Source of the DNA: an uncultured virus (IMG/VR IMGVR_UViG_3300025844_000015)
Taxonomy: Duplodnaviria > Heunggongvirae > Uroviricota > Caudoviricetes
Virus record (IMG/VR): IMGVR_UViG_3300025844_000015
Location: 52,886 to 72,885 of that record
Direction: 5' to 3' (one strand)
DNA: 20,000 bases
In this document: positions 1 to 13,456 of the stretch, one piece after another
How positions within the stretch are numbered: position 1 is the first letter of the stretch
How the letters are laid out: each line of letters starts with the position of its first letter
The notes under the pieces: model-generated
Databases searched by the model: none
What the model was told of the DNA's origin: nothing
The model's input: only the letters and a program-made list of their open reading frames with translations
Made by a program: the position numbers and the translations under genes

Positions 1-1242
1 TTTTTCTCTTTTCTTGAAAAAGAAAAAAAGGGGTACAATCTCTCTCTGGATGATGTAATGCGTTTTGTGCTAACAATCAAAAGCAAAAAGAGCGCTCTGC
101 GAAACGTAGCAGGTTCAGGAGAAGAAATATCAAGGTCCCTTGCTTCGTCAACTGTCGGAAGAGAAGCCAATCTTGCAAGAGGGTTCAGTGATACCAAAGA
201 TGTAAATCTAGGTGAAACCAGTATTGATAATATGCATGCAGTAGGAAAAGCATTAGAGGCCGCAGGATATGCAGAACTAAACGATGATCCACGCAAATCA
301 ACAATAGACCGAGACGCAACCGCGAGATTATTGAAATTCATCAACACTATTAAAGCTAGTGGTTTCAATACACCACGACAGGTAGCTCAAAATTTCGAGA
401 AGGCCGTTGGTTCATATCGCCGTGGTGTAGAGGGCTTCAAACAAGATATCGGTAGAGGGAACAGTGATCTTGATATTGCTAAAGATCGAGTAAGTAATAT
501 AACACCAAACATGTTAATGTTTCTGGCCGCAGTAGTAAAGAAAAAAGGTAGAAGTGAAGCGTGGGACAACTACCTAAACCCTGATAACTATGATGAACCA
601 CCGTTGCCGGGTTATACTCCGGGGTCATACAATCCCCGTGAAGCCGCTAAAGAACTAATAGCTATGGGACTTACAACCAAAACACCCAAAAAAGGACTGA
701 TAACTCTAAACAAGGATGCAATTAAAAAATCGGTTTCAGCCCTCCGCAACGAGTTAGAAGAATTAAAAACAGGTAGCATCGAACAACCCGGTAACGTTAA
801 CACAAAAAGTCTAAAAGCCGTTGAACAAAATGCTAAAGCGTTAATCGACAAGATTGACTCAATGGTTCCTAATGACATCAAACGACTGGCAGAAAGTAAA
901 CTAGCAGCGGCACTTAGAAAAGCCAGTGAAGATACCGGTGACGATTCTTTTATTCAAGCCTATAACTTGTATACTAACAAACTAGCCCAATCAAGCGAAA
1001 GTGAAGCCGTGGGTGATGCTTCCGAAAGAATCAAAAAAACCCACTTAGGTAGTGTTATCGCTTTCCTGAGAGCCAGAATCATCGGTCGCATGCTTTACCA
1101 TTACGCATCGATGGTAATAGGCGATGGAAAAAAGTGGAAAGCACCAAACAAAGACTATGGATTTACTGGTCCAAAAGAACTATCTATGGTAAGAAGCGCG
1201 CTCAAAAGTGGCGATGCATTAAAAACGTCACGTCTTTACTGA
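1..1242 (+). CDS. Hypothetical phage protein, probably 5'-truncated by the window edge (possible virion/internal protein)
   Basis: The ORF track starts at ATG 58, but the frame is open from base 1 (FFSFLEKEKKGYNLSLDDV-MRFV...), so the gene probably begins upstream. Helical, K/A/S-rich, no recognisable motif. Confidence 0.7.
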   Translation, partial: FFSFLEKEKKGYNLSLDDVMRFVLTIKSKKSALRNVAGSGEEISRSLASSTVGREANLARGFSDTKDVNLGETSIDNMHAVGKALEAAGYAELNDDPRKSTIDRDATARLLKFINTIKASGFNTPRQVAQNFEKAVGSYRRGVEGFKQDIGRGNSDLDIAKDRVSNITPNMLMFLAAVVKKKGRSEAWDNYLNPDNYDEPPLPGYTPGSYNPREAAKELIAMGLTTKTPKKGLITLNKDAIKKSVSALRNELEELKTGSIEQPGNVNTKSLKAVEQNAKALIDKIDSMVPNDIKRLAESKLAAALRKASEDTGDDSFIQAYNLYTNKLAQSSESEAVGDASERIKKTHLGSVIAFLRARIIGRMLYHYASMVIGDGKKWKAPNKDYGFTGPKELSMVRSALKSGDALKTSRLY

Positions 1243-1249
1243 AAAAAGC

Positions 1250-1281
1250 TTGACTTCACCTTCCCCAAGCATATATAAATA
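1250..1281 (+). promoter_or_regulatory. Overlapping sigma70-like promoter (TTGACT ... TATATA/TATAAA) and T4-type late promoter TATAAATA
   Basis: TTGACT at 1250-1255; -10-like hexamers at 16-18 bp spacing; exact T4 gp55 consensus TATAAATA at 1274-1281. The ORF track shows no + strand ORF until 1945. Confidence 0.7.
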
Positions 1282-1282
1282 A

Positions 1283-1617
1283 CCCTGTTCCCAACTTTGC
1301 AGTAAAGGAACACTTACAATTTGCATATCCCGAACAGGCTGCACAAATGTCGGACAGGGTGGATAGTAGACGATGAGGTTGCTATCCCATAGAAAAGCCC
1401 TAAAGGTCTGAATGAGGGGATTATACGTTGGTAACGCTTTCGGGACAGGCTGGACGTATAAATCCTAGACTCATGAAAACAAGTTCATTGTTCATCGCAG
1501 TGAAAGGTCTTGGATCAATATTGATCGCGAATGACTGGAGATCGTCTTTGTACTGCAAATACAATGATCTTGTTATGGTAGTAGCAAGATAGATTCACCT
1601 ACCTAGGTTGGAACGGG
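1283..1617 (+). ncRNA. Putative large structured non-coding RNA, family not recognised
   Basis: The 5' and 3' ends pair (1283-1295 with 1607-1617). Perfect 9-bp long-range helix TTTGCAGTA 1296-1304 / TACTGCAAA 1551-1559. Internal hairpins with G-U pairs at 1350-1411, 1412-1474 and 1567-1590. Loop-loop complement 1328-1334 / 1439-1445. Lies immediately behind a promoter. Confidence 0.6.
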
Positions 1618-1741
1618 AAATTTCCTAAACAAATTTATTATACAATTTTGTTAAAAAATGGGGGAGAGTATTTTAAAACCCTTCAAAAAATATTCAAAAA
1701 CACTGTAACCTACAAAATAGAAATAAAACAGAAACAAAATA

Positions 1742-1944
1742 AAGAATGTAAATGCGAACGGAGCGAAGCGTAGTGAGTATTTACATTCTTGTAAAAAAAA
1801 AACGAAATAACAAATTAATGGGGACCCCTTCGGGTCCCTCGGAGTCCGCTGTCGCGAACATCCGACTTGCTCTGCGCTCTTTAATAAGGTACAATATACG
1901 GTACACCCAAATAGGTACAGACAAATGAACTACAAACAAATAGG
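1742..1944. repeat. Cluster of inverted repeats and short direct repeats (origin-like)
   Basis: 12-bp perfect IR AAGAATGTAAAT 1742-1753 / 1779-1790 enclosing GCGAAGC 1763-1769; hairpin GGGACCC-CTTC-GGGTCCC 1821-1838; GGTACA at 1888, 1900 and 1914; CAAATAGG at 1908 and 1937. Confidence 0.6.
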
Positions 1945-1950
1945 TTGAAT

Positions 1951-4656
1951 ATGAAACACGAAGAGATACTTGAAAATAACGAAAAGAAAATTCTAGAGAC
2001 ACTAGGAAACAGAAGTGTGTTCGACGCTTGGAAGAAAGCTCTAAATTACACGCCCAGAGATTCTCAAGAGAAGGTAATGGAGTGGATTGATACGTTGCCA
2101 CCTGAAATCAAGTACATTTTAGTAGAAGCCCCCGTAGGCTGTCATGCAATAGATACACCAATAATAGGCTATGACGGACACATCAAACTGGTTCAAGAAA
2201 TAAAGGTTGGGGATCAACTAATGGGACCTGATGGAAAAAAGCGTACCGTTTTGGAACTGCATCGAGGTACTCAACAGATGTATAAGATAACACCGGTAAA
2301 AGGTGACCCATTTGTCGTCAACCAAGACCACATACTATCGTTGAAAACCACTCCGCTGGGAGGTAGGTACAATGTGTCAGGGAGCGAAATAGTAAACATT
2401 TCTGTTCGTGATTATCTGAATAAATCGAATCACTTTAAAAGAAATCACAAACTGTATCGACCGGATTTCATTGAATTTACGGATTCTCAGTCTTTTCAGT
2501 CTTGCAACGAAAAACAGCAAGAGATAAACCCATATTTCATGGGAGTACTGTTGGGGGATGGATGTATGAAAAAATGTGCTTCAGTTACCACTATCGATTA
2601 TCAAATTGCACAGACCGTATATGAACAAGCGGAAGTATTTGGACTTGAGGTTAGGGAACAAGTCAAAGAATCTACACATGCAATACAGTATTACTTGTCT
2701 AGTGGAAGGTCTCAGCTATATGAAGACCGAAACCGCTTGATCGATATTCTGAAGAGAAACGGCTTGTATGGAAAAACTTCAGGGAATAAGTTTATTCCAC
2801 ACATGTACAAGGTTGGAAATAAGTTAACACGACTCGAAATACTGGCAGGGCTTATAGACACCGATGGAAGTCACAACGGTAGAGGGGGTTTTGATTATGT
2901 AACTAAATCCCCCCAGTTGGCAGAAGACATTAAGTTCATATGCAGAAGTTTGGGACTATCTGTAAATTCCAGTATAAAGACGGTAGATGGAAAAAAATAT
3001 GCAAGAATATGTATTAGTGGTAACACAGATATTATACCTACCCGTTTGGAGAGAAAAAAGGCACCACCTCGAAAACAAAAAAAGAGACCCACAGTGACCG
3101 GGTTTTCGATAGAAAAACTTGATGTAGATGAATATTACGGCTTTTCTCTGGATGAAGACCATCTCTATTTGTTGGGGGATTTCATAGTAACACACAATTC
3201 AGGAAAATCTAATTTAGCAATGGCATTCAGTTCTTACATTAGTGATAGAATGGGTGATTCGTTCATATTAACTCCACAGAAAACGCTACAGCGCCAATAT
3301 GAAGAGTCATTTGAAAAACATCTTCTTTTTTCTGTATACGGAAGAAGTAATTATGAATGCGAACAAAAAAACACGACTTGTGATGTAGGCGCGGATATTA
3401 AACCTGCATGTGATAATTGTCCCGCTAAACTCGCAAGAGATATGTCTATTACATCACCTAATGCCGTAATGAACTATACATTAGCTCTAACTTATTTCAA
3501 ATACTTGAGAAAAATGATTCCCCCTAGAAATTTAATGGTGTTGGATGAAGCACATACCTTGGAATCCAACCTTGTCGAATTCAGTTCGATTTCTGTAACG
3601 GACAAGAAATGTAAGAAATACAACGTCAAGTTCCAGTTCGCTCGTAGCGCCGCTGAGGCCATAAATTGGATAAGTCGTACCTATCTACCTGCCGTCGAAG
3701 CAAAATCGATAGAGCTACGTAAGAAGGTGACTGAGATCGAAACTAGAGGTGGGGCACTGAGTAAATCTGACATACAGACTGTTCGTGCTGCCATAACAGC
3801 CACGGAACATCGTAACCAATTAGTAGATCTAGTAGAAATGGACATGTCTCTAATAGACAAGAAATACGTCCTTGTGTCTGAAAAAGTTGGATTCAAATTC
3901 AAGGAACTCTACGCCAAGAATAATTTTAAAAACATTTGTTTACCAATGGCAAATCGTTTTCTCTTTATGTCATCTACTATTCTGGATAAAGACGAATTCT
4001 GTCGAGACTTGGGGATCGACCCAGATGAGTCTGCTATGATTTCTCTTGATTCCGAATTTCCAGAAGAAAACAGGGAAGTAATATTTTCTCCCGTTACCAA
4101 AATGAATTATGGGTGGAACTCTGAAGAAAGAACACAAGATCGTAAGAAGATGATGACCCACATCAATCATGTATGTAGCTATCATGCGGACGAGTCGGGT
4201 GTGATACACACGGGTTCTTTCCAAGTTTCCCAGTGGATTCTTGAAAACATAAAGACAAATCATAGAATCATTCATCATAATCCCGGTTTCAATCTTAGTA
4301 GAGATGAAGCTATTGACACCTTTTTGGAGTGTTCTGAAAAAGAACCAACTTTGCTGATATCTCCTTCTGTGACTGAAGGCATGGACTTGAAGGATAATCG
4401 CGGAAGATTTGCACTTATAGTCAAAGTTCCGTATCCGTATTTAGGAGATGCGTGGACAAAACGACGTATGCAGATTTCCAAGGACTGGTACAACCGACAG
4501 GCTATTACAGGAATAATTCAGGGTTGTGGTAGAGTTGTACGTTCCAAGGATGACTGGGGTACGGTATACATTCTCGACGAGTCCTTCGAATATTTGTATA
4601 ATCAGACTAGAAAAATGATTCCATCATGGTGGAAGAGAGGATTGACAGTAGTATGA
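1951..4656 (+). CDS. DinG/XPD(Rad3)-family SF2 helicase with Fe-S cluster motif, containing an intein
   Basis: After intein removal the Walker A reads EAPVG/SGKS. Also Q-motif-like YTPRDSQ, motif Ia TPQKTLQRQY, Cys cluster GRSNYEC...C...CDNCP, motif II VLDEAH, motif III MSST, motif V TEGMDL and motif VI QGCGRVVRSKDDWG. ATG 1951 with AGGT SD is preferred over TTG 1945. Confidence 0.9.
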   Translation: MKHEEILENNEKKILETLGNRSVFDAWKKALNYTPRDSQEKVMEWIDTLPPEIKYILVEAPVGCHAIDTPIIGYDGHIKLVQEIKVGDQLMGPDGKKRTVLELHRGTQQMYKITPVKGDPFVVNQDHILSLKTTPLGGRYNVSGSEIVNISVRDYLNKSNHFKRNHKLYRPDFIEFTDSQSFQSCNEKQQEINPYFMGVLLGDGCMKKCASVTTIDYQIAQTVYEQAEVFGLEVREQVKESTHAIQYYLSSGRSQLYEDRNRLIDILKRNGLYGKTSGNKFIPHMYKVGNKLTRLEILAGLIDTDGSHNGRGGFDYVTKSPQLAEDIKFICRSLGLSVNSSIKTVDGKKYARICISGNTDIIPTRLERKKAPPRKQKKRPTVTGFSIEKLDVDEYYGFSLDEDHLYLLGDFIVTHNSGKSNLAMAFSSYISDRMGDSFILTPQKTLQRQYEESFEKHLLFSVYGRSNYECEQKNTTCDVGADIKPACDNCPAKLARDMSITSPNAVMNYTLALTYFKYLRKMIPPRNLMVLDEAHTLESNLVEFSSISVTDKKCKKYNVKFQFARSAAEAINWISRTYLPAVEAKSIELRKKVTEIETRGGALSKSDIQTVRAAITATEHRNQLVDLVEMDMSLIDKKYVLVSEKVGFKFKELYAKNNFKNICLPMANRFLFMSSTILDKDEFCRDLGIDPDESAMISLDSEFPEENREVIFSPVTKMNYGWNSEERTQDRKKMMTHINHVCSYHADESGVIHTGSFQVSQWILENIKTNHRIIHHNPGFNLSRDEAIDTFLECSEKEPTLLISPSVTEGMDLKDNRGRFALIVKVPYPYLGDAWTKRRMQISKDWYNRQAITGIIQGCGRVVRSKDDWGTVYILDESFEYLYNQTRKMIPSWWKRGLTVV
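2140..3198 (+). mobile_element. Intein (353 aa) with LAGLIDADG homing endonuclease
   Basis: Block A C1-HAIDTPII; block B VVNQDH; LAGLIDADG motifs PYFMGVLLGDG and ILAGLIDTDG; block F YYGFSL; C-terminal VTHN followed by +1 Ser. Inserted within the P-loop (APVG|SGKS). Confidence 0.95.
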
Positions 4657-5166: not shown

Positions 5167-5796
5167 ATGTCAAAAATAATATACACTACGGAAAACGAAA
5201 ACGAAAGACCAAAACAAACCAATGCGGATACTGCTCCTCCTTTAAATCTGGTATATGGCCAAGAAGACACGAACACACGCCCCAAAAGAAGGACAGTATT
5301 GCAGCATTATCTCGAAGAAAACTCTTATTACGTTTATGATTCGGAAAGCAGAAAAACTTTTGCAGAAACTGTAACCGGCAGTTTAATCACAGAAGATTTC
5401 ACTACGGACTGGTTGTTGAATGCTGCACAATCGCAGGGAGAATCTCCTTTTTTTGGTGAATGTTATAGTGTTGAACAAGCACAGACTCCAGTCCTTTTGA
5501 GCATAGATTACGACGGGGACAAATCGTATTATTCTTTGTCACTGATATTGCGGTACATTGGATCACAACCATCTACAACCGTGGAAATGGTGTTGACCTA
5601 TAACGACGGCTCTGATAATGTCGAACACAATTTTAATTTTGAGGTTAATAACGGAGAAGATCGCGAGGTTAATATAGATTTAACTGCTCTTGGGATTACA
5701 CCCGTATCTTTCGTGAATATTTTATTGACACCAGATTTGGTGGAATACGACATATTCAGGTTGTGTGATATAACGGGTGTCCGTATGTCCGGTTAA
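5167..5796 (+). CDS. Hypothetical late protein (acidic, probably beta-rich; possible virion component)
   Basis: 209-aa ORF behind a late promoter; T/D/E/N-rich; no recognised family. Confidence 0.7.
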   Translation: MSKIIYTTENENERPKQTNADTAPPLNLVYGQEDTNTRPKRRTVLQHYLEENSYYVYDSESRKTFAETVTGSLITEDFTTDWLLNAAQSQGESPFFGECYSVEQAQTPVLLSIDYDGDKSYYSLSLILRYIGSQPSTTVEMVLTYNDGSDNVEHNFNFEVNNGEDREVNIDLTALGITPVSFVNILLTPDLVEYDIFRLCDITGVRMSG

Positions 5797-5800
5797 TCTA

Positions 5801-6424
5801 ATGATTGACGTTGCTATAATTTGTAGTGGAAGCAGGGAAAGTTATTTCAAAGAATGTTTACTCAGTTTGGAAAAAGAGCCCGTAAACATATGTGTAGTAG
5901 ATAAACAGAAAACTCTTGGCGACGGAAGAATAAAATCTTATGAAGCTGGAGTAAACAGGTTTGTATGCTTTGTTGATGACGATGATGTTATTATTCCCGG
6001 AGCTTTTGATCGTGCTTTGTTTAAAATTAAGTTAGAGTCGAATATATCCGCATATTATTCTAACCATTTAGTTGTTACCGAAGATTTGTCTACCGTTATC
6101 GGACGTAGGTTTTCTAAATTGTCGTCACCCGGCTTATTACAAGACGCACAAATGCACCACATAGTAGTATATGACAGAAATACTATAAGCCCTGTTATTG
6201 GTTATCTGAGGGGGGTTCATACTCGCGACAGAAGGTTGCTGAATTACCATTCTATAATGAATGGTCGGGTTATTGGAGATTTGAACCATGGCGCAATGTG
6301 GAGAATACATTCTGGGAATAACCATAAAACCGCAGACATCAGATCCAATCCACCGGAATGGTTCGCAAAGATAGAAGAACTGGAAAAAGATATCATCGAC
6401 AAATTCTCCAAAATAGTCAGGTGA
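5801..6424 (+). CDS. Glycosyltransferase, GT-A fold (family 2-like)
   Basis: N-terminal strand IDVAII..., YFKECLLSL, ICVVD, and DxD motif FVCFVDDDDVIIPGA. ATG 5801 just after the previous stop is preferred over the start at 5777. Confidence 0.8.
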   Translation: MIDVAIICSGSRESYFKECLLSLEKEPVNICVVDKQKTLGDGRIKSYEAGVNRFVCFVDDDDVIIPGAFDRALFKIKLESNISAYYSNHLVVTEDLSTVIGRRFSKLSSPGLLQDAQMHHIVVYDRNTISPVIGYLRGVHTRDRRLLNYHSIMNGRVIGDLNHGAMWRIHSGNNHKTADIRSNPPEWFAKIEELEKDIIDKFSKIVR

Positions 6425-8579
6425 CTATTTTGGAGAATCCGTTTTTCAATTCAATTTTGATTTGATCTTTGAATGAATCTTTGATTTCGTCTCTATGCGA
6501 AATGATGAACATTGACAGTTTATTCTTTTCTGCTACCTCTTTCATCAGCTTTACGGTTTTTCTTACACCAACATTACTCAGACCGACATCTAGACATTCG
6601 TCTAGAATATACAAGTTGATGAAATTGTGCTTGGATTGTAGAACGTCTCTGAAGGCCAGAGAGAGGGCAATGTTTATCCGTGCCTTCTGTCCAGACGAAA
6701 GGCTCGTAAAGGTGATCTCACGGTCAAACTGGCCAATTTCCATGGAGAGGTCAGATTTGAACTTAGCCTTGTGAGGCAAACCCATGGTGCTCAAATAATA
6801 GTGCAATCGTTCGTTTAGGAACGGCAGGTACTTGTCCATCAAAGCTTTTCTTACAAACGAGTCCTTCTTAGTTAAAAGCTTTAACAAGAATTCTTGATGT
6901 TTAACTGTTTTCTCAAGAGAGTCGATTTCTTCAGACTTGCTTTCCTTGACCCTAAAACCTTGTAAAGTTTCAAGTGATTTTTCATAAGGGTTTTCTTGTT
7001 CTACAAGGTATCCTTTTTTTTCTTTCGCTGATTCCATCTTGTTTTTGGCTTCGAAGAGTTCTCGTAGGGTACCGAATGAAGGACTATCAAAAGTCTTTCC
7101 CTTCTCTATTTCAATGTCGCTTTTTATTTTTCCAAGTTCTTTCAAGAGTGACTCTATCTCGTCATTTCTATTAGAATGAGGATTTTGTTCTACTTTTAAT
7201 TCTTCGATAGTTTCTTTGACACCATCTCTAGCGTTCCGAAAACTTCCGACCATGAAGGGATGAGTGAATTCATTTGGTATTTGATTTTTGATTTCCTCTA
7301 ATCTAACAGTAGATTCGCTAATTGATTCTTCTATCTCCTGTGAGGTTTTCAGAGTTTTCTTGAGAACTTCAGAAAGAGTCTTCAATTCATCAACAACACT
7401 TTCGAGTTTATCTTTCGAGTCCTTGTAATCTTGAGAACAGTAAGGACATTTGGCGTTTTCCAAAGTCTTTTTTTCTTTTTCAAGTTCTTCTACTGCATCT
7501 AGACCTTCATCAAGGACCTTTTCCAACTTGCTCAGCTCTCTTTTCTTTTCCCCTATTTCCTTTTCCAGATTGTCTCTATCCTGAAAGAGGATCAATATCT
7601 TGTCGAGATCTTCTTCAGAAAATCTCTCGTAATTGGTCAATTCTTTTTCAAGTTCAACAATTTTTTTAGCTTTATTCTCATCATATGCTTCGAACTTCTT
7701 TTGTTCTTCTGTATAACGAGTCATAGTTCTGGATTCTTCTGTTAAAGAAGACTGTAGTTCCTTCAACAGTTTATTGTGTACGTCTAGTTTTTCCAATAAG
7801 ATTTCTTCCTTATCGAAATTGAATTTGCTATATTTTTCAATCAACTTTTCAACTTCTTCAATATCCAACTGGTGCTGATGATTCCAAGATGCAATATTTT
7901 TTTCCGCTTCTTCCACACCCTTTTTGTGTCTGGCGTGTTCTTGTTTGATTTCTTCGTTGGAATCTTTGGCATATTTCAAATCACTCTTACTGGATTTGAT
8001 CTGTTCTTTTAAGGTTTCGGCCTTTTTTGTAAGTTCAGTATAGGAGAAAAGTTCTTCTATTACATCTCTCTGCTTAGCTAGAGGCATTTTTAAAAAAGAT
8101 TCTTCGCTTGCAGCGTATGTTATGATCCTACTGAATATCTCGTATGGGACTTTGACAATTTCCTCGGCAATGTAAACATTAGCATTCGAAATACTGTCTG
8201 GTGTTATGTCTTTCCCGTTCTTGACAATTTTAACACCACTACCGCCCATTGCTTTATTTTTTCTATATCTGCTTATTTTGTAGATATCTTCTTTTATTTT
8301 AAAGTCTATTTCCACAAGGAGATCCTTGTTGTTGATGTTGTTTATTAGGTTGTCTTTCTTTTCTGATTCTTTCCCTAGAGCCAGATCGTAAAGAGCGAAA
8401 GTTATTGCCATCAACAATGAACTTTTCCCGCACCCATTAGAGTCCATTTCTCCATTCACAGAAGCATCGTGGTTGATACCAGTAATAAGGGTTGGATTCT
8501 TTCTCTGTAGATCTAAGCTAACGGCCTCATTCCCGTAGGACAGGAAATTTTGTAATGTCACTTTTTCAAATACAATCAT
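6417..8579 (-). CDS. gp46: Recombination endonuclease ATPase subunit (T4 gp46 / Rad50 / SbcC-like)
   Basis: NFLSYGN; Walker A NGCGKS; long coiled coil with zinc hook CPYC; signature LSSGQ; Walker B ILDE; H-loop IISH. Confidence 0.95.
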   Translation of the reverse strand: MIVFEKVTLQNFLSYGNEAVSLDLQRKNPTLITGINHDASVNGEMDSNGCGKSSLLMAITFALYDLALGKESEKKDNLINNINNKDLLVEIDFKIKEDIYKISRYRKNKAMGGSGVKIVKNGKDITPDSISNANVYIAEEIVKVPYEIFSRIITYAASEESFLKMPLAKQRDVIEELFSYTELTKKAETLKEQIKSSKSDLKYAKDSNEEIKQEHARHKKGVEEAEKNIASWNHQHQLDIEEVEKLIEKYSKFNFDKEEILLEKLDVHNKLLKELQSSLTEESRTMTRYTEEQKKFEAYDENKAKKIVELEKELTNYERFSEEDLDKILILFQDRDNLEKEIGEKKRELSKLEKVLDEGLDAVEELEKEKKTLENAKCPYCSQDYKDSKDKLESVVDELKTLSEVLKKTLKTSQEIEESISESTVRLEEIKNQIPNEFTHPFMVGSFRNARDGVKETIEELKVEQNPHSNRNDEIESLLKELGKIKSDIEIEKGKTFDSPSFGTLRELFEAKNKMESAKEKKGYLVEQENPYEKSLETLQGFRVKESKSEEIDSLEKTVKHQEFLLKLLTKKDSFVRKALMDKYLPFLNERLHYYLSTMGLPHKAKFKSDLSMEIGQFDREITFTSLSSGQKARINIALSLAFRDVLQSKHNFINLYILDECLDVGLSNVGVRKTVKLMKEVAEKNKLSMFIISHRDEIKDSFKDQIKIELKNGFSKIVT

Positions 8580-9625
8580 TATAAACCTCTGTAAATTTTT
8601 TTAAGTTCTTCAGATTCAATTTCTTCAGCCTTGATTTTTCCTAACAGGGCTAAAACTATTTCGTCCGTACTTTCCGACTCCAAGTCTTCCTCGTCTATGT
8701 CTTCGCTGATCTTATAATCATCGACAGGCTCTTCCATTTTCAGTTCCCTGAGAGAGTATTTGTTGATAAGAACTTCCTTGATATGCAGAATATCTTCGAA
8801 ACCCAAGTCTTTCTCATCAACCAGACAGGTTACAGTTGCCTTGGGTCTAAGATAATCTTTCGGATTCTCCAGAAGATCACTTAGAGAACATCTGATGTAG
8901 GTTGGTGCTTCTTCCCAATCAATGTATTTTAGATTATCATTTTCGAAATCGTAGATCGCCATACCACGTTCTGTTTGATTGGCGTCACTATAGTCCATCG
9001 GGAAAGTATTGCCAATATAATGAACGTTTTTCTTTTCCTGTCTTTTGTGGAAGTGGCCGGTGAATATCCGATCAGGCCCCCTGAAATCTTCTTGATCGGG
9101 TCCGTGTTCTAGAACCTTGGTTTCTCCCGTCAAAACGAATCCCTTGAACTCAAAGTGTCCAAAGACTACGTCATGAGAGTTGATCACCACAATTTGTTCA
9201 GCATATTCTTCTTCGAAAAGATACGGACAGAAAAGAATACTCTTGTTGCCGATTTTGACACTTATATTATCATCCACCAGAATTAGATTACCAAATGGTT
9301 CAAAAATTACAGTGTTAAAAGAGTTACGATTGTTTCTGTAGACTAAATCATGATTTCCTACGATTAGAAAAAATGGAAGTTTCAGTTCTTCGACCAACTG
9401 TTTAATTATTTTGTGTGATCGGTCTAGGGTTTTTCCTGTGATAGCATCTCGGTGTTCAAACCAATCACCACAAAATACAATTATGTCAACCTTTTCTTTT
9501 TTACAATTGTCTATAAACCAGTCAATGTAATCTTGACAATCATTCAAATGAACATCACTACTGTTTTTTCTACCTAGATGGATGTCGGTGAACATTGCAG
9601 CTTTTTTTACATTATTCAGATTCAT
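8579..9625 (-). CDS. gp47: Recombination endonuclease nuclease subunit (T4 gp47 / Mre11 / SbcD-like)
   Basis: Metallophosphoesterase motifs DIHLG, GDWF, VGNHD, GHFE and GHFH; adjacent to gp46. GGAG SD lies 6 nt before ATG 9625. Confidence 0.95.
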   Translation of the reverse strand: MNLNNVKKAAMFTDIHLGRKNSSDVHLNDCQDYIDWFIDNCKKEKVDIIVFCGDWFEHRDAITGKTLDRSHKIIKQLVEELKLPFFLIVGNHDLVYRNNRNSFNTVIFEPFGNLILVDDNISVKIGNKSILFCPYLFEEEYAEQIVVINSHDVVFGHFEFKGFVLTGETKVLEHGPDQEDFRGPDRIFTGHFHKRQEKKNVHYIGNTFPMDYSDANQTERGMAIYDFENDNLKYIDWEEAPTYIRCSLSDLLENPKDYLRPKATVTCLVDEKDLGFEDILHIKEVLINKYSLRELKMEEPVDDYKISEDIDEEDLESESTDEIVLALLGKIKAEEIESEELKKIYRGL

Positions 9626-10289
9626 ATTCATCTCCTGAATATTGTTTGTATGTCGGATCGTAGATCGACGAAAGTTCACTTATCTCTCTTTTTAGGAACT
9701 CGCAAACAGAAACTTTATTTTCCCTGTCCTCTTCCTTTTTCAAAATGGTTGATACCATATCTCGGTGGATATTTCTAGTCGCTTCTTTGTCTTCTACAAC
9801 TCTGGCAATTTCTCGCATCAATAGATTTTTGAAACGTTCGGAAATTTTCTTTTTGGCAACAGACTCTAGATATGCTTCCTCTAGTTCCATTTCTCTGAAA
9901 TCTTCTTCGTAGGTGTGTGATGGAAGTTCTCCCTCTTTCAATAATAAAGCATCTTTGATATTTCTTTGTGATTTTTCTGAATCTAAAAATTGCCAAAAAG
10001 CCCGTTTAATGGTCTGGGTGAAATATGCAAAAGGGTTGTAGTATGTATTTGGGTCAAAGCTGTCCCAGCCCCTACACACAATTGTAAAGGCATATGATTC
10101 CATATCCTCACGATATGTGTAACTTGCATAACTACCCTGAGACGAATATCGTTTGGCTAGTATCATGATCATCTCGCCAAAACGCTCAGTCATTCTGCCT
10201 TGTGTTTTGCTCTTGATAACTTCTTCAAGCATTTCTTTGTTATTGATGTAATATTGATCTTTTTTTGTTTTTCTTTTTCTTGTAGTCAT
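9612..10289 (-). CDS. gp55: Late transcription sigma factor (T4 gp55-like)
   Basis: YINNKEML, YTYREDM and FDP...NPFAYFTQ...AF motifs; gp55-gp47-gp46 order; TATAAATA promoters are present in the window. Confidence 0.9.
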   Translation of the reverse strand: MTTRKRKTKKDQYYINNKEMLEEVIKSKTQGRMTERFGEMIMILAKRYSSQGSYASYTYREDMESYAFTIVCRGWDSFDPNTYYNPFAYFTQTIKRAFWQFLDSEKSQRNIKDALLLKEGELPSHTYEEDFREMELEEAYLESVAKKKISERFKNLLMREIARVVEDKEATRNIHRDMVSTILKKEEDRENKVSVCEFLKREISELSSIYDPTYKQYSGDEYESE

Positions 10290-10399: not shown

Positions 10400-13300
10400 T
10401 TGGATAAGCAAGCGGCAAACCAACTAATACTCGCCATAAACGAGTTAAATCGCAGATTGGGTATGATGGGTGCAAATCAACGCCCCGGCTGGATGCGCGA
10501 TGGTGATTCTAACGCCAGATACGGTGGGACGGATTCCAGCGGAGAGAAACTGCTGGATAAGATGCGTGAACAGCGCAAGGTTTTCGACGATACCACTAAA
10601 GTACAAACTAGATTTATGCGAACCATGGCAGAGGGTGTTCCAATTATTGGAAACATCGTGAAGGTTATCGGCAAACAGACCGAGGATTTGAAAATGTCAA
10701 TGCGCGGTCAATCTGATGCTTATAAAAATGCCGCTCTCGCGACCGAAGAATACGCATACAGGGTGGGGCAGAATAGTGACGATCTTTATACTATTCATCA
10801 AACCCTATCCAATGTTCAAAAGAAAGCGTCAGATCTTGCAAAGATTGTCCAAAATAGAGCAAGTATAGAAAAAAGAATCTCCGAAAACGCAAAAACAGCA
10901 AAAATAGGCGCACAGAAAGTCAAATTGGAAAAAGATCTTTCGAATATTTCAGAGGTGTTGAAAGAAGCCCAGAAGAAACTTAGGTTGGAAAAAAACGCTC
11001 CGGTGGAGGGTAACATCAAAGAAATCATTAAAGATCTAAAGGAACTGAAGAAAGTTCCTGATCTGTTTTCTGATATTAAAGATGAGTTGGCCAAGAAAGA
11101 CGTTCAAGAAGCGATAAGAAAAGATCAATCACTAGCAGCCATCATGAAACCTATTGTGGATGGGTTGGGTAAAGATGTAGGAGAGGCTTCTGATAACATC
11201 AAAGAATACTCCAAATCTATTAATGAAACCGTGAAAGGAAGTTTCAATACGTTAGCTGGAATAATGCAAAAAAGTTTGGATGATGTTGTACAATCCAGAA
11301 ATGATTTGAACAATACTCTTTCTAATTTGGGAGCCTCTATTGCTGCATCCGTGGGGGTGGCGGCTAAACAAGAAGCCGTAATGTTTATGGAGCGCCAGAG
11401 GCTGACTGGATCAACCACAAGTACAGCCATGCGAGGGGAAGCCATTACGATGGGGGTTTCTGAAACAGAACTACTGACTTCACTCGCAGAGAATAGATTT
11501 CAGATGAGAAGACTAGGACAGGCTGAAGGATTCGGTGGGGCCGCGGAATTTATGGAGTCTTCGGCGTTCGAACAGATGAGACAAACCGCATACGAAATGG
11601 GATACACCGGAAAAGCAGCGTTGGATGCTATCATGCAAACTACTGATGTACTTAGAAGAGTCGGTGCAGATTCTAGTGTACAAGCGGTTTCTTCTACAAT
11701 AAAATTCATCAAAGAAACACATAAAGAGTTGGGCGTGTCACAAGAAGAAATGGCCGGTTTCTTTAGTGATATGATGAAAGATACAGAAGGTTTGAGATTA
11801 TTGGCCGGGGCCCGTGACGGTGGGGGATTTGCTTCTATCGAGGCAATGAATGAAGAAATTGAAATGAGAGGAAAACTGGCACGGGTATTAAATCAAGATT
11901 TGGAGATTCAAAAGAAAAGATTGAATGAGCAGAAATCATTGGCGTTCGGTGATCCAGCAGAAGCACTCAGACGGTCTATAGGGGGTAGTATTCTAGCTAG
12001 ACAGGTGGGCATGCCGTCGGAGGATGCAAACTTGCTTCGTCGCTACATGACATCCGGGGGTCAGGATATGAACGAACCAGACCTATTGAGGGCTAAAATA
12101 GCCAGAGAGAATATCGAGATACTTACTGGTAAAGCTCTTTCAGAGGCTGCAACAAAGGGAGAGGCGGGGTTTGGTGAGAGAGCACTTCTTACTGCATTCA
12201 TGGGCCAACTCGGACTTGATGTTGATAGTGCGCTTGGTGCATACACCAGATCGGGTGGTGGAAAACTTATTACTAATGAGGAACAACTTCTTGCGGCAGA
12301 AGCGGCTAGAACCCAAGAACCCGTTGAACCCGTGGGTCCGGCCATGAAGACCGCCATTGGGGCAATAGAGACTGCCCAAGGTGTTTTAAAATCTAGTATC
12401 GGACAGGCCGCTGCGGTAATTACTGGTTCTATAGTTACGACATCTGGGGGGATAATAGCATCAATCTTTGCAACCAGAATGGGGCTAGGACTTTCACCTC
12501 TAGGTCGCGCGGGTGGAGCGATTTCTAGGGCAGGTGGCGCAGTCGTGGGTGCTGCTAAGAGGATTGGGGTGCGTGGCGCAATACGGGGTCTAGGTCGAGC
12601 ATCGGTTCCGGTTTCTGTGGGGTTTTTGGCACATGATGTATACAAAGGCGTAAATGCCGGAATGTCTATCAGATCGTCTCGACAGGCAGAAACCCGAGCC
12701 AGACGGGGGTCAATAGGTTCTCTGGATAGAATGATTTCAACTATGCAAGAACGGGGACTTACTCACCACCCCAACGGAAGAAGCCTCGAAGAAATGATCG
12801 CCATGCGCAACCAACTGGCAGGAAGCAAAGGACCAGACACTGCTTCTGCGAATAGTATACCTAGCTTGATTGGCGTGTCCAATGATCCTACAATCCAACG
12901 AATTTTAAACGAAACTGGTCCGGGGAAGAGTTCAACACGACCCCCATCCAGTAGTCTACTTAGTGGAGAACACCAGATTCAACTTTCTTCGGCATTTAGA
13001 GGCGGGGAAGCCATAACATTGGCAGAAATGATGTCATCTTCTCGTAGACCGACAGACCCAAATTCAACATGGGGGGCTGACATTGGCTTGGACGACAGAC
13101 AGGGTATGAGAAAGTTGGCAGAGGATGGAATTATCAATTTTTCACAAAGCTCTGATTTTTCTAATACAACAGATATTGCGGGTTTGCGGGAAATGAAAGA
13201 ATATCTTGAAGAAGACGGAAGCTTGGAACGTACCGGAGAACGAGAAGCAGTAGAGATGATACGAGAAAAACTAGATCAATTGATTGGTGTAAACGAGGAG

Positions 13301-13456
13301 GGCAACCAAATAACCCTATCGACAGCGGATAAAGAATTCCGTGCAAGAAGAGAAATGAGCGAGGAGGACCAACGGAAAGCCGTAGACGAAGGTATTAATA
13401 GTGTAGTATCTACACAACTAGAAAACGCTCGCCGAAGAGCAGCTTCATATTCGTAA
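10400..13456 (+). CDS. Large helical virion protein, probable tail tape-measure/baseplate-hub-like protein
   Basis: 1018 aa; coiled-coil N-terminal half, Ala/Gly-rich hydrophobic segments and a Gly/Arg-rich amphipathic stretch (GRAGGAISRAGG...GRASVPVSVGFLAHDVYKG) as in tape measures; late promoter; TTG start uncertain. Confidence 0.55.
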   Translation: MDKQAANQLILAINELNRRLGMMGANQRPGWMRDGDSNARYGGTDSSGEKLLDKMREQRKVFDDTTKVQTRFMRTMAEGVPIIGNIVKVIGKQTEDLKMSMRGQSDAYKNAALATEEYAYRVGQNSDDLYTIHQTLSNVQKKASDLAKIVQNRASIEKRISENAKTAKIGAQKVKLEKDLSNISEVLKEAQKKLRLEKNAPVEGNIKEIIKDLKELKKVPDLFSDIKDELAKKDVQEAIRKDQSLAAIMKPIVDGLGKDVGEASDNIKEYSKSINETVKGSFNTLAGIMQKSLDDVVQSRNDLNNTLSNLGASIAASVGVAAKQEAVMFMERQRLTGSTTSTAMRGEAITMGVSETELLTSLAENRFQMRRLGQAEGFGGAAEFMESSAFEQMRQTAYEMGYTGKAALDAIMQTTDVLRRVGADSSVQAVSSTIKFIKETHKELGVSQEEMAGFFSDMMKDTEGLRLLAGARDGGGFASIEAMNEEIEMRGKLARVLNQDLEIQKKRLNEQKSLAFGDPAEALRRSIGGSILARQVGMPSEDANLLRRYMTSGGQDMNEPDLLRAKIARENIEILTGKALSEAATKGEAGFGERALLTAFMGQLGLDVDSALGAYTRSGGGKLITNEEQLLAAEAARTQEPVEPVGPAMKTAIGAIETAQGVLKSSIGQAAAVITGSIVTTSGGIIASIFATRMGLGLSPLGRAGGAISRAGGAVVGAAKRIGVRGAIRGLGRASVPVSVGFLAHDVYKGVNAGMSIRSSRQAETRARRGSIGSLDRMISTMQERGLTHHPNGRSLEEMIAMRNQLAGSKGPDTASANSIPSLIGVSNDPTIQRILNETGPGKSSTRPPSSSLLSGEHQIQLSSAFRGGEAITLAEMMSSSRRPTDPNSTWGADIGLDDRQGMRKLAEDGIINFSQSSDFSNTTDIAGLREMKEYLEEDGSLERTGEREAVEMIREKLDQLIGVNEEGNQITLSTADKEFRARREMSEEDQRKAVDEGINSVVSTQLENARRRAASYS

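What the first reader, a model, noticed from the sequence alone, without database searches (positions are those of the whole stretch)
1250..1620. Candidate unclassified ~335-nt structured phage ncRNA with its own dual (sigma70 + late) promoter
Seen: a promoter with no downstream ORF, then nested pairings. Terminal helix CCC(T)GTTC(C)CAAC 1283-1295 / GTTGGAACGGG 1607-1617. Perfect TTTGCAGTA 1296-1304 / TACTGCAAA 1551-1559. Three-tier hairpin: TCGGAC 1350-1355 / GTCTGA 1406-1411, AGGGT / GCCCT, GGATAGTAG / TTGCTATCC. Long hairpin ATGAG..GGAT-TATACGTT / GACGTATA-AATCC..CTCAT at 1412-1474. ATCTTGTTA 1567-1575 / TAGCAAGAT 1582-1590. The frequent G-U pairs work on the + strand, which favours RNA-level over DNA-level structure. 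Known: large phages carry big structured ncRNAs (e.g. ROOL, GOLLD), but I do not recognise tmRNA, RNase P, tRNA or intron hallmarks here. Inference: an abundant, possibly new RNA class made both early and late, perhaps an origin primer, scaffold or regulator.
Basis: partly seen in the sequence, partly recalled or inferred. Interest (0 to 1): 0.85.

Follow-up and report, generated by a model that had tools for sequence, protein, structure and literature searches.

The report
New large folded RNA, giant phages
The gene-free gap in front of the helicase gene of this uncultured giant phage encodes a large, intricately folded RNA that fits no catalogued RNA family, is kept by compensating base-pair changes in about thirty related phages, and has no known job.

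Summary
Window 1250-1627 holds a sigma70-type promoter and a structured non-coding RNA on the + strand.

- **Known families:** Rfam 15 and ARAGORN find nothing here.
- **Conservation:** Homologues lie in 43 loci (32 distinct sequences). All are on the helicase strand, directly upstream of the same DinG/XPD-like helicase. There is one copy in each of three complete 315-350 kb genomes.
- **Confirmed helices:** Covariation on sequence-only alignments supports the long-range helix 1296-1304/1551-1559, the long hairpin 1412-1474, the two inner tiers of the "three-tier" hairpin, and hairpin 1567-1590.
- **Refuted helices:** The terminal helix is replaced by a 3' hairpin, 1604-1607/1624-1627. The outer tier is replaced by 1335-1340/1405-1410.
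- **New features:** a three-way junction and a loop pseudoknot, 1577-1581/1599-1603.
- **Promoter:** The sigma70 element is widespread. The late TATAAATA box occurs in 10 of 32.
- **Tail:** A conserved tail follows (AT hairpin, A-run plus G-run, long hairpin). The 3' end is unknown.
- **Function:** Unknown. No RNA data exist. My best guess is a stand-alone, trans-acting structural RNA.

Earlier notes of this scan reached the same family through relatives.

The parts
1250..1281 (+). Promoter: -35 TTGACT 1250-1255, 18-base spacer, TATAAA 1274-1279, overlapping a T4-type late box TATAAATA 1274-1281
   Evidence: The pattern occurs once in the window, 0.01 expected. A strict TTGAC-N16-18-(TAnnnT or TATAAA) site lies upstream of the RNA in 20 of 32 family sequences; TATAAATA in 10 of 32. 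The three other + strand TATAAATA boxes of the window (window 5132, 10365, 16427) start 35-38 bases upstream of ORF starts 5167, 10400 and 16465. A gp55-like late sigma factor is encoded at 9612-10289.
1283..1315 (+). Variable 5' leader holding the 5' strand of the long-range helix P2 (TTTGCAGTA 1296-1304). The start of transcription is inferred near 1286-1289, not measured.
   Evidence: The leader is missing in five relatives (L056, L100, L058, L057, L099), whose -10 box ends 6 bases before the core. Their 3' part is also short, 98-110 against 122-218 bases.
1316..1411 (+). Core junction domain. Conserved block ACAATTTG...CGAACAGGCTGCAC. Helix Pa: CAGGCT 1335-1340 with GGTCTG 1405-1410. Conserved joining strand GTCGGAC. 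Hairpin tiers AGGGT 1356-1360/GCCCT 1397-1401 and GGATAGTAG 1361-1369/TTGCTATCC 1379-1387. In 27 of 30 relatives a further hairpin sits after GCTGCAC and makes a three-way junction. It is absent here, in L015 and in L078.
   Evidence: Pa is 100% paired in 30 sequences with CG 14, UA 9, AU 5 at one pair. The extra hairpin and the middle tier each have 5 of 5 pairs changing on both sides.
1412..1480 (+). Long hairpin P4: ATGAG 1412-1416/CTCAT 1470-1474, GGGAT 1417-1421/ATCCT 1462-1466, TATACGT 1422-1428/ACGTATA 1454-1460, and an apical loop with conserved TTC-GNNA. It is followed by the conserved single strand GAAAAC 1475-1480.
   Evidence: base helix 100% paired, 5 of 5 pairs covary; second tier 82% paired. 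The third tier shows one compensating change against L009 (by eye).
1481..1566 (+). Variable 3' inner domain: local hairpins (for example GATCAATATTGATC 1513-1526), a candidate helix around 1538-1543/1591-1596, and the 3' strand of P2 (TACTGCAAA 1551-1559)
   Evidence: P2: 18 of 25 sequences, Fisher p = 3e-5. The 1538-1543/1591-1596 helix shows compensating changes in 5 sequences. It would cross P2, so a pseudoknot is possible but was not tested further.
1567..1603 (+). Hairpin P7 (ATCTTGTT 1567-1574/AGCAAGAT 1583-1590). Its loop GGTAG 1577-1581 pairs with CTACC 1599-1603 to form a pseudoknot.
   Evidence: P7: 24 of 26 sequences, 21 distinct arms. Pseudoknot: 92% paired in 23 sequences, 4 of 5 pairs change on both sides.
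1604..1627 (+). 3' hairpin P8: TAGG 1604-1607/CCTA 1624-1627, inner TTG/(C)AA, and conserved loop TTGGAnnGGGnAATTT
   Evidence: 88% and 90% paired. The outer helix shows GC 13, UA 7 and AU 12, GC 10 at two pairs. For the whole 3' structure, 90.2% of cells are paired against 75.5% in shuffles, 0 of 500 shuffles as high.
1628..1685 (+). Conserved tail, first part: AT-rich hairpin about 1629-1652, A-run 1653-1658, T 1659, G-run GGGGGAGAG 1660-1668, which can pair with CCC(TT) 1679-1683
   Evidence: A5-6[T/C]GGGG(G), mostly followed by AGGGAG or TAGGGTAGG, is present in 32 of 32 family sequences (by eye). AAATGGGGG occurs only 3 times in the 72.9 kb contig. The AT hairpin is found in 31 of 32, with 14 G-U-type against 4 A-C-type wobbles, which favours the + strand RNA.
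1742..1790 (.). Conserved tail, second part: long AT-rich hairpin (AATGTAAAT/ATTTACATT) with purine-rich loop GCGAACGGAGCGAAGCGTAGTGAG
   Evidence: A hairpin of 8 or more pairs lies between the G-run and the helicase in 32 of 32 sequences. Most carry a GCGAGCG..AGCGAG or GCGAAGC-type loop. Wobbles are 15 G-U against 13 A-C, so the strand and the DNA or RNA level are not decided. GGAGCGAAGCG is unique in the contig.
1820..1839 (.). G+C-rich hairpin GGGGACCC-CTTC-GGGTCCC(T), a possible end of the transcription unit. There is no U-run on the + strand.
   Evidence: The tool scores it as terminator-like only on the - strand. A consensus intrinsic terminator between the RNA and the helicase was found in only 9 of 32 relatives and not here.
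1867..1895 (+). The helicase gene's own promoter, TTGCTC-N17-TACAAT, ahead of the start codon at 1951
   Evidence: Read. Comparable -10 boxes, often TGTGGTATAAT, lie before the helicase start in relatives (by eye). This argues that the RNA is not simply the helicase leader.

Best explanation
Window about 1286 to at least 1655 is an independent gene for a large structured non-coding RNA of a clade of uncultured T4-core giant phages. Host RNA polymerase transcribes it from a near-consensus sigma70 promoter, so early in infection. In this subclade the overlapping TATAAATA box probably also drives late transcription.

The RNA folds into a compact multi-domain body:
- a junction domain closed by 1335-1340/1405-1410;
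- a long hairpin, 1412-1474;
- a long-range helix tying the 5' leader to the 3' domain, 1296-1304/1551-1559;
- a hairpin-loop pseudoknot, 1577-1581/1599-1603;
- a 3' hairpin with a conserved loop.

Invariant unpaired blocks lie between these helices. I think it most likely acts in trans as a structural RNA, either the core of a ribonucleoprotein or an RNA-only assembly. It may serve the replication and recombination module that it always accompanies.

The fold, its conservation and its strand are shown. Transcription, the two ends, abundance, partners and activity are all inferred.
For: - **No known family.** Rfam at gathering score gives 0 matches in 20 kb. At E up to 10 there are five weak matches, all at 1654-1859; the best scores 17.2 bits against a cut-off of 81.3. 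ARAGORN finds 0 genes.
- **Fold.** z = -3.18 on the + strand, -1.77 on the - strand.
- **Family.** Iterated nhmmer over 135 helicase-anchored loci and three isolate phage loci finds 43 loci, 32 distinct sequences, all on the helicase strand just upstream of the helicase. A covariance model of the 5' half finds 31 at E of 4e-16 or better among 100 sources searched. There is one copy each in three complete genomes of 315-350 kb.
- **Selection.** Against the relative L009/L015 the RNA is 81% identical over 393 bases. The upstream protein is only 34% identical in amino acids. The helicase is 83% identical.
- **Covariation on MAFFT alignments that were not fitted to any structure.**
  - 5' half: 87.4% of 736 cells paired against 65.4% in shuffles, 0 of 500 as high; slid controls reach at most 48.6%; 211 cells change on both sides against 80.7 expected.
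  - 3' part: 90.2% against 75.5%, 0 of 500; slid controls at most 56.5%.
- **Strand.** Invariant G-U pairs exist only on the + strand.
- **Independence from the helicase gene.** The RNA has its own conserved promoter. The helicase has a separate one.
Against: - No transcript evidence of any kind. No RNA run holds the sequence, and all window-type carriers are uncultured.
- The 3' end is undefined. There is no consensus terminator in the window, and only 9 of 32 relatives have one.
- The strict linkage to the helicase gene, the A-run plus G-run and the long palindromic hairpin downstream would also suit a cis-acting DNA or R-loop element.
- The nearest cultured relatives (XacN1, Xoo-sp13, RAS14) do not carry this RNA. 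They have a different conserved element at the same spot, so it is not indispensable to the clade.
- About two thirds of the helicase-anchored loci lack it. Most of these have more distant helicases or short gaps.
- 'Trans-acting' and 'ribonucleoprotein' rest only on analogy with other large conserved RNAs.
- The shuffle controls do not remove relatedness among sequences. The slid controls do.
Confidence: 0.5

Rival explanations
1. Transcription-primed replication origin. The promoter fires into an AT-rich unwinding stretch and a G-run. The G-rich RNA forms a persistent hybrid (R-loop) with the C-rich template and primes leading-strand synthesis. The adjacent helicase is loaded there. The folded 5' body steers hybrid formation, as the pre-primer RNA II of ColE1 does.
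For: - The region is always next to the replication and recombination genes: helicase at 1951-4656 and gp46/47-like nuclease subunits at 6417-9679.
- An AT-rich hairpin, an A-run and a G-run are conserved in 32 of 32 sequences. The motif is nearly unique in the contig.
- A long perfect palindrome with a GCGAAGC-type loop shows no strand bias in its wobbles, 15 against 13. This allows a DNA-level role.
- From my own knowledge, not tested here: T4 oriF and oriG are a promoter plus an unwinding element, and ColE1 and mitochondrial CSBII use G-runs.
Against: - The AT hairpin shows + strand-only wobble pairs, 14 against 4. The G-run can pair with a downstream pyrimidine run through G-U pairs (by eye). 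Both look like parts of a folded transcript.
- A 340-base body with pseudoknots and invariant loops is far more than known primer RNAs need.
- The cumulative GC skew of the 72.9 kb contig turns at about 49-50 kb, 4-5 kb from the RNA, and follows gene orientation.
I did not check that claim.
Confidence: 0.17
2. Cis-acting leader of the helicase operon. A large sensor RNA, riboswitch-like or protein-binding, decides whether transcription from the upstream promoter reads through the downstream hairpins into the helicase gene.
For: - Same strand and invariable position directly upstream of the helicase in 43 of 43 loci.
- Hairpins lie between the RNA and the helicase, some terminator-like: 9 of 32.
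Against: - The helicase has its own good promoter after those hairpins, in the window (TTGCTC-N17-TACAAT) and in relatives (by eye).
- About 320 bases with further conserved elements separate the folded body from the start codon.
- No known riboswitch or T-box signature was found.
- No alternative terminator/antiterminator pairing was found.
Confidence: 0.12
3. A catalytic RNA (ribozyme) or guide-like RNA that works with the adjacent DinG/XPD-family helicase or another phage protein. Examples would be processing its own transcript or targeting nucleic acid.
For: - Size, pseudoknots, a junction domain and invariant unpaired nucleotides are the features usually taken as hints of catalysis or precise recognition.
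- Strict gene linkage with the helicase.
Against: - No similarity to any ribozyme, intron, omega-RNA or CRISPR family in Rfam.
- No variable 'guide' segment was identified.
- No nuclease or reverse transcriptase gene lies beside it.
- Phages with closely similar helicases do without it.
Confidence: 0.08

Closest known systems
GOLLD and ROOL RNAs (large 'ornate' RNAs of phages and prophages), with OLE and raiA as bacterial counterparts
   Same: A large, multi-domain RNA of unknown function, conserved by covariation, phage-borne, with its own promoter and no protein-coding capacity. If the tail is included, the possible size range is similar. Cryo-EM shows that GOLLD, ROOL and OLE form RNA-only homo-oligomers (abstract of PMC12286853, seen in the listing).
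   Different: No sequence or structure match to their Rfam models, even at E up to 10. It sits beside a helicase in lytic T4-core giant phages, not beside tRNA genes in prophages (that comparison is from recall). No conserved palindromic kissing loop was seen. Oligomerisation was not tested.
ColE1 pre-primer RNA II, T4 oriF/oriG and the mitochondrial CSBII primer
   Same: A promoter-driven transcript followed by an AT-rich stretch and a G-run, next to replication genes. In ColE1 a folded RNA body controls hybrid formation. All of this comparison is from recall.
   Different: No antisense RNA I-like partner and no RNase H site can be inferred. The tail elements look folded in the RNA. No evidence of initiation exists here.
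The conserved element upstream of the helicase in Xanthomonas phages XacN1 and Xoo-sp13 and Stenotrophomonas phage RAS14 (unannotated)
   Same: Same place, an unannotated gap of about 700-800 bases between a gene of about 350 codons and the helicase (640-820 bases to the longest helicase ORF). Same strand. It has a conserved core of about 330 bases in which 28 of 75 predicted pairs show compensating changes among 3 sequences. A G-run (ACGGGGGG) lies downstream.
   Different: No detectable sequence or model similarity: blastn, nhmmer and covariance models R1 and R2. The helix layout is different. Homology is therefore not shown.
The 10,006 candidate structured RNAs predicted from IMG/VR intergenic regions (PMC10690425)
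   Same: Same data source and the same kind of object. Parts of this RNA could be among them.
   Different: The main text does not mention a helicase-linked or giant-phage motif (term search). Six contig names of this family were not found in files 3-6. The alignment and position archives (files 1, 2 and three others) could not be read, so its presence in the catalogue is undecided.

Membership tests
Any Rfam 15 family (including GOLLD, ROOL, OLE, raiA, HEARO, tmRNA, RNase P, group I/II introns, 6S, riboswitches) | Score at or above the family's curated gathering threshold with its covariance model | tested here: not met
   0 matches in the whole window. With permissive filters at E up to 10 on 1150-2050, no match overlaps 1283-1627. 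No relevant match in four related loci.
tRNA / tmRNA | Cloverleaf or tRNA-like domain with a tag reading frame, as recognised by ARAGORN | tested here: not met
   0 genes in the window.
Hammerhead ribozyme (considered because of CTGnATGAG ... CTCATnGAAAC) | Unpaired CUGAUGA and GAAA core around three stems | tested here: not met
   ATGAG and CTCAT pair with each other, and all 5 pairs covary. No Rfam hammerhead match.
Group I intron (considered because of AAAUGUCGG, recalled from the Tetrahymena intron) | Location within a gene with flanking exons; P3-P7 core recognised by the Rfam model | tested here: not met
   It lies between genes directly behind its own conserved promoter. No Intron_gpI match. 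The resemblance is a 9-base recollection, not a test.
Transcription-primed origin (ColE1 / T4 ori type) | Promoter upstream of an unwinding element and a persistent RNA-DNA hybrid that primes DNA synthesis | not testable with these tools
   The promoter, AT-rich stretch and G-run are present. Hybrid formation and initiation cannot be computed. GC skew is uninformative.
The new family itself (window-type helicase-upstream RNA) | Match to covariance models R1 (5' half) and R2 (3' part), + strand, upstream of the DinG/XPD-like helicase | tested here: met
   Window 1316-1480 scores 121.2 bits, E = 1.5e-25. Window 1556-1632 scores 50 bits, E = 2.5e-8. The window was part of both seed alignments, so it matches by construction. 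The independent support is the 32-sequence family.

The most novel reading that the evidence does not exclude
The RNA is the functional partner of the replication module. It could be the folded, G-run-bearing pre-primer of the phage's main origin, or an RNA subunit that loads or directs the adjacent DinG/XPD-like helicase. On this reading, the unrelated RNA at the same site in the XacN1-type phages is an analogous replacement. That would make an RNA-dependent step a general feature of genome replication in this lineage of giant phages.
Probability: 0.15. Interest if true: 0.9.

Novelty: categorically new. Interest (0 to 1): 0.74.

Why it matters
Large RNAs with pseudoknots, junctions and invariant unpaired blocks are rare. 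Nearly every such class that was solved turned out to be a ribozyme, a ribonucleoprotein core or, recently, an RNA-only cage. This one is phage-borne, single-copy and driven by a near-consensus promoter. It is conserved better than the protein gene beside it and is tied to the replication genes of giant phages, whose replication start is not understood.

The family alignment and two covariance models now exist, so the RNA can be synthesised, probed and imaged directly. The positionally equivalent element in cultured Xanthomonas and Stenotrophomonas phages offers a genetic handle.

As far as my searches reach, it is not in print. Other agents of this scan have already noted the family through relatives.

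Tried and rejected
- **Expression.** The look-up of sequencing runs listed 24 DNA holders (aquifer, cold-spring and hot-spring metagenomes) and no RNA holder. Nothing was laid, so there is no evidence on expression either way.
- **Isolate phages.** blastn of 1200-2000 against 50,697 phage records gave no match. tblastn of the upstream ORF gave no match.
- RNAalifold on five sequences proposed a closing helix between CGAACAGGCTG and TAGGTTGGAnnGGG. I dropped it because both partners have better-supported mates. RNAduplex between the leader and the 3' domain was uninformative because it allows huge loops.
- **Cellular genomes.** A pattern made of the 3' hairpin and the G-run tail gave 10 matches in 185,579 species genomes, about 8 expected by my estimate. 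None carries the RNA by R1 or R2. The pattern fits only about a third of the family, so absence is not shown.
- **Link to the XacN1-type element.** Not found by blastn, nhmmer or the covariance models.
- **GC skew as an origin test.** The turn lies at about 49-50 kb of the contig and tracks gene orientation, not the RNA.
- **Small ORF at ATGGGGGAG.** 16 codons here, 5 in L009, and no start codon in the ACG variants. Rejected.
- **Shine-Dalgarno mimic reading of the G-run.** Not conserved; the TAGGGTAGG variants do not fit.
- **Intrinsic terminator as the 3' end.** Found in 9 of 32 relatives, none in the window.
- **Partner protein among neighbours.** The upstream and downstream small ORFs are poorly conserved and not co-distributed with the RNA.
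- **Literature.** Seven searches and a term search in the XacN1 genome paper found no description.
Full report
**Context.** The window is the last 20 kb of a 72.9 kb IMG/VR fragment, estimated 21% complete. It comes from an uncultured phage with T4-type core genes:
- portal, prohead protease and a gp55-like late sigma factor;
- gp46/47-like nuclease subunits;
- a DinG/XPD-like helicase (Helicase_C_2) that here carries an intein.

The nearest isolates are the giant phages XacN1, Xoo-sp13, RAS14 and CM1. Their portal and helicase are about 50% identical in amino acids. The finding lies in the 708-base gap 1243-1950, between a 413-codon ORF of no known family and the helicase gene.

**Is the observation there?** Yes.
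- TTGACT (1250-1255) and TATAAATA (1274-1281) are present. The combined pattern occurs once, against 0.01 expected.
- The + strand of 1283-1617 folds to -101.7 kcal/mol, z = -3.18, with 0 of 100 dinucleotide shuffles as good. The - strand gives z = -1.77, with 7 of 100 as good.
- Rfam 15 gives no match at gathering score in the window. With permissive filters only five weak matches appear, all at 1654-1859.
- ARAGORN finds nothing.

**Relatives.**
- Near-identical contigs carry the same region at 99.7-99.9% identity.
- One contig with an 83%-identical helicase (L009 = L015) has the region at 77-81% identity, while the spacer further downstream decays. Between the same two phages the upstream protein is only 34% identical. 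The non-coding stretch is therefore under the stronger constraint.
- I used an alignment of five helicases to fetch 55 viral loci and 80 metagenome loci. Iterated nhmmer found the RNA in 43 loci, 32 distinct sequences. All are on the helicase strand, directly upstream of the helicase.
- A covariance model of the 5' half (R1) recovers 31 of them at E of 4e-16 or better among the 100 sources I gave it, which was not all of the roughly 157 held. It finds nothing convincing elsewhere.
- Three complete genomes of 315-350 kb have exactly one copy. XacN1 has none.
- About two thirds of the helicase-anchored loci lack the RNA. Many of these have gaps under 200 bases before the helicase.
- No conserved ORF exists in the RNA region.

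**Structure: 5' half.** I tested helices on MAFFT alignments that know nothing of structure. In the 5' half (30 sequences, alignment A7):
- RNAalifold found two helices, and I added three.
- Together, 87.4% of 736 cells are paired against 65.4% in shuffles, with 0 of 500 shuffles as high.
- Partners slid by 1-3 columns reach at most 48.6%.
- 211 cells change on both sides, against 80.7 expected.
- The helix CAGGCT 1335-1340/GGTCTG 1405-1410 is paired in every sequence. It shows CG, UA and AU at one pair, AU, GC and CG at another, and a CG-to-UA switch in five sequences.
That pairing holds in only 12-30 of 30 sequences per pair and shows no compensation.
- In 27 of 30 sequences a hairpin of free sequence sits after GCTGCAC. 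With the AGGGT/GCCCT arm it gives a three-way junction. The window, L015 and L078 lack that hairpin.
- The base of the long hairpin, ATGAG 1412-1416/CTCAT 1470-1474, is paired in all 30, and all five pairs covary.

**Structure: 3' part.** In 23 sequences (alignment A8):
- The loop of hairpin 1567-1590 (GGTAG 1577-1581) pairs with CTACC 1599-1603.
- TAGG 1604-1607 pairs with CCTA 1624-1627 around a conserved loop.
- Overall, 90.2% of cells are paired against 75.5% in shuffles, 0 of 500 as high. Slid controls reach at most 56.5%.
Its 5' partner is not conserved (by eye).
- The hairpin 1567-1590 itself is present in 24 of 26 sequences, with 21 different arms.

**Structure: long-range helix.** In 18 of 25 sequences the leader forms a contiguous Watson-Crick helix of 6 or more pairs with the 24 bases just 5' of that hairpin. 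The sequences differ widely: TTTGCAGTA, TTTACAGA, ATTGCATG, CGTGCTA, TACATGA, AACACG, TCACACG, GATTACAAT, GAACAGAAAAA and others. Fisher-combined p is 3e-5 against shuffled leaders. Five relatives whose -10 box abuts the core have no leader, and they also have the shortest 3' parts. This fits the pairing.

**Promoter.**
- A strict TTGAC-N16-18-(TAnnnT or TATAAA) site precedes the RNA in 20 of 32 sequences. Several more have near-misses. One sequence is cut by its contig end.
- TATAAATA is present in 10 of 32.
- The window's three other + strand TATAAATA boxes start 35-38 bases upstream of ORF starts, and a gp55 homologue is encoded. Late use here is therefore plausible.
- The family-wide feature is the host-type, presumably early, promoter.

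**Tail.** After the 3' hairpin, every one of the 32 sequences has an AT-rich hairpin, then A5-6, T or C, and a G-run, mostly GGGGGAGGGAG or GGGGGTAGGGTAGG.
- The motif is almost unique in the contig.
- The AT hairpin shows 14 G-U-type against 4 A-C-type wobbles, so it is read on the + strand.
- Further on, all 32 have a long AT-rich hairpin. Most have a GCGAGCG..AGCGAG or GCGAAGC-type loop (window 1742-1790). Its wobbles show no strand bias, 15 against 13.
- A consensus terminator before the helicase promoter occurs in only 9 of 32 sequences and not in the window.
- The transcript therefore probably extends past 1627, but I cannot say where it ends.
- The helicase has its own promoter: 1867-1895 here, and similar boxes in relatives by eye.

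**What it is and how it may work.** It is a new family of large structured RNA. I hold that it is a real structured RNA gene at about 0.9. I put the specific reading of a stand-alone, trans-acting structural RNA or ribonucleoprotein core at about 0.5. The rivals are:
- a transcription-primed origin, 0.17;
- a cis leader of the helicase, 0.12;
- a ribozyme or helicase-associated guide, 0.08.

Nothing computable here separates them. GC skew follows gene orientation, and no RNA data exist.

**Known systems.**
- GOLLD, ROOL, OLE and raiA are the nearest in kind, but membership fails.
- The hammerhead-like words pair with each other.
- The group I-like word is a recollection only.
- XacN1, Xoo-sp13 and RAS14 hold a different conserved, covarying element of about 330 bases in the same gap. 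It has no detectable relation to this one.

**In print?** Seven full-text searches found no description. The XacN1 genome paper does not mention non-coding RNA, origin or helicase (term search). The IMG/VR catalogue of 10,006 candidate structured RNAs (PMC10690425) might contain it. I saw passages of its main text and files 3-6 of its supplements, which do not name six of the contigs. I could not read its position and alignment archives.

**Earlier notes of this scan.** Three AI notes on relatives describe the same family:
- one calls it a roughly 590-base RNA kept in at least 33 phages;
- one calls it an RNA of about 415 bases with an unproven origin role, and part of that note later fell;
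- one reads the 'origin-like' tail as transcribed with the RNA.

They agree with my reading but are not independent evidence.

Noticed in passing
window 2140-3201 (within the helicase gene 1951-4656): The helicase carries an intein with a homing-endonuclease domain: Hom_end_hint at residues 64-415 and LAGLIDADG_3 at 295-352. The 83%-identical orthologue in L009 is 549 residues and has no intein.
   Followed up: partly
L004 3230-3640 (XacN1), L005 3225-3640 (Xoo-sp13), L006 3165-3580 (RAS14): The cultured relatives have their own unannotated, conserved core of about 330 bases in the gap upstream of the helicase. 28 of 75 predicted pairs show compensating changes among three sequences, and ACGGGGGG lies downstream. 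In XacN1 a 53-codon 'predicted ORF' (ORF313) is annotated on the opposite strand inside the gap, next to the core. It is a candidate second RNA class and is open to experiment.
   Followed up: partly
window 1653-1668 and the same place in 31 other sequences: The motif A5-6-(T/C)-GGGGG(A/T)(A)GGG is invariant in the family, but AAATGGGGG occurs only 3 times in 72.9 kb. In many relatives the preceding bases read TATAAAAA, one base off the late-promoter box. The G-run could therefore also be a second transcription start. Unexplained.
   Followed up: partly
window 1742-1790: A long hairpin whose loop holds GCGAAGC. From recall, that heptamer is known as an unusually stable mini-hairpin. Relatives have GCGAGCGnnAGCGAG, which can form tandem G-A pairs. 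One relative (L088) has three copies.
   Followed up: partly
window 5132, 10365, 16427: TATAAATA boxes start 35-38 bases upstream of the ORFs starting at 5167, 10400 and 16465. This fits T4-type late promoters read by the gp55-like factor encoded at 9612-10289.
   Followed up: partly
window 1-1242: The upstream ORF has no Pfam or PHROG family. It evolves fast: 34% amino-acid identity to the orthologue in a phage whose helicase is 83% identical.
   Followed up: no
window 10400-13456: A 1018-residue ORF behind a late-type box matches no Pfam or PHROG family.
   Followed up: no
L036 about 2223-2281 and L042 about 2153-2210: Two phages that lack the RNA share a 59-base block, 76% identical, in their own gaps of 650-760 bases upstream of the helicase. 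This may be yet another conserved non-coding element at this position.
   Followed up: no
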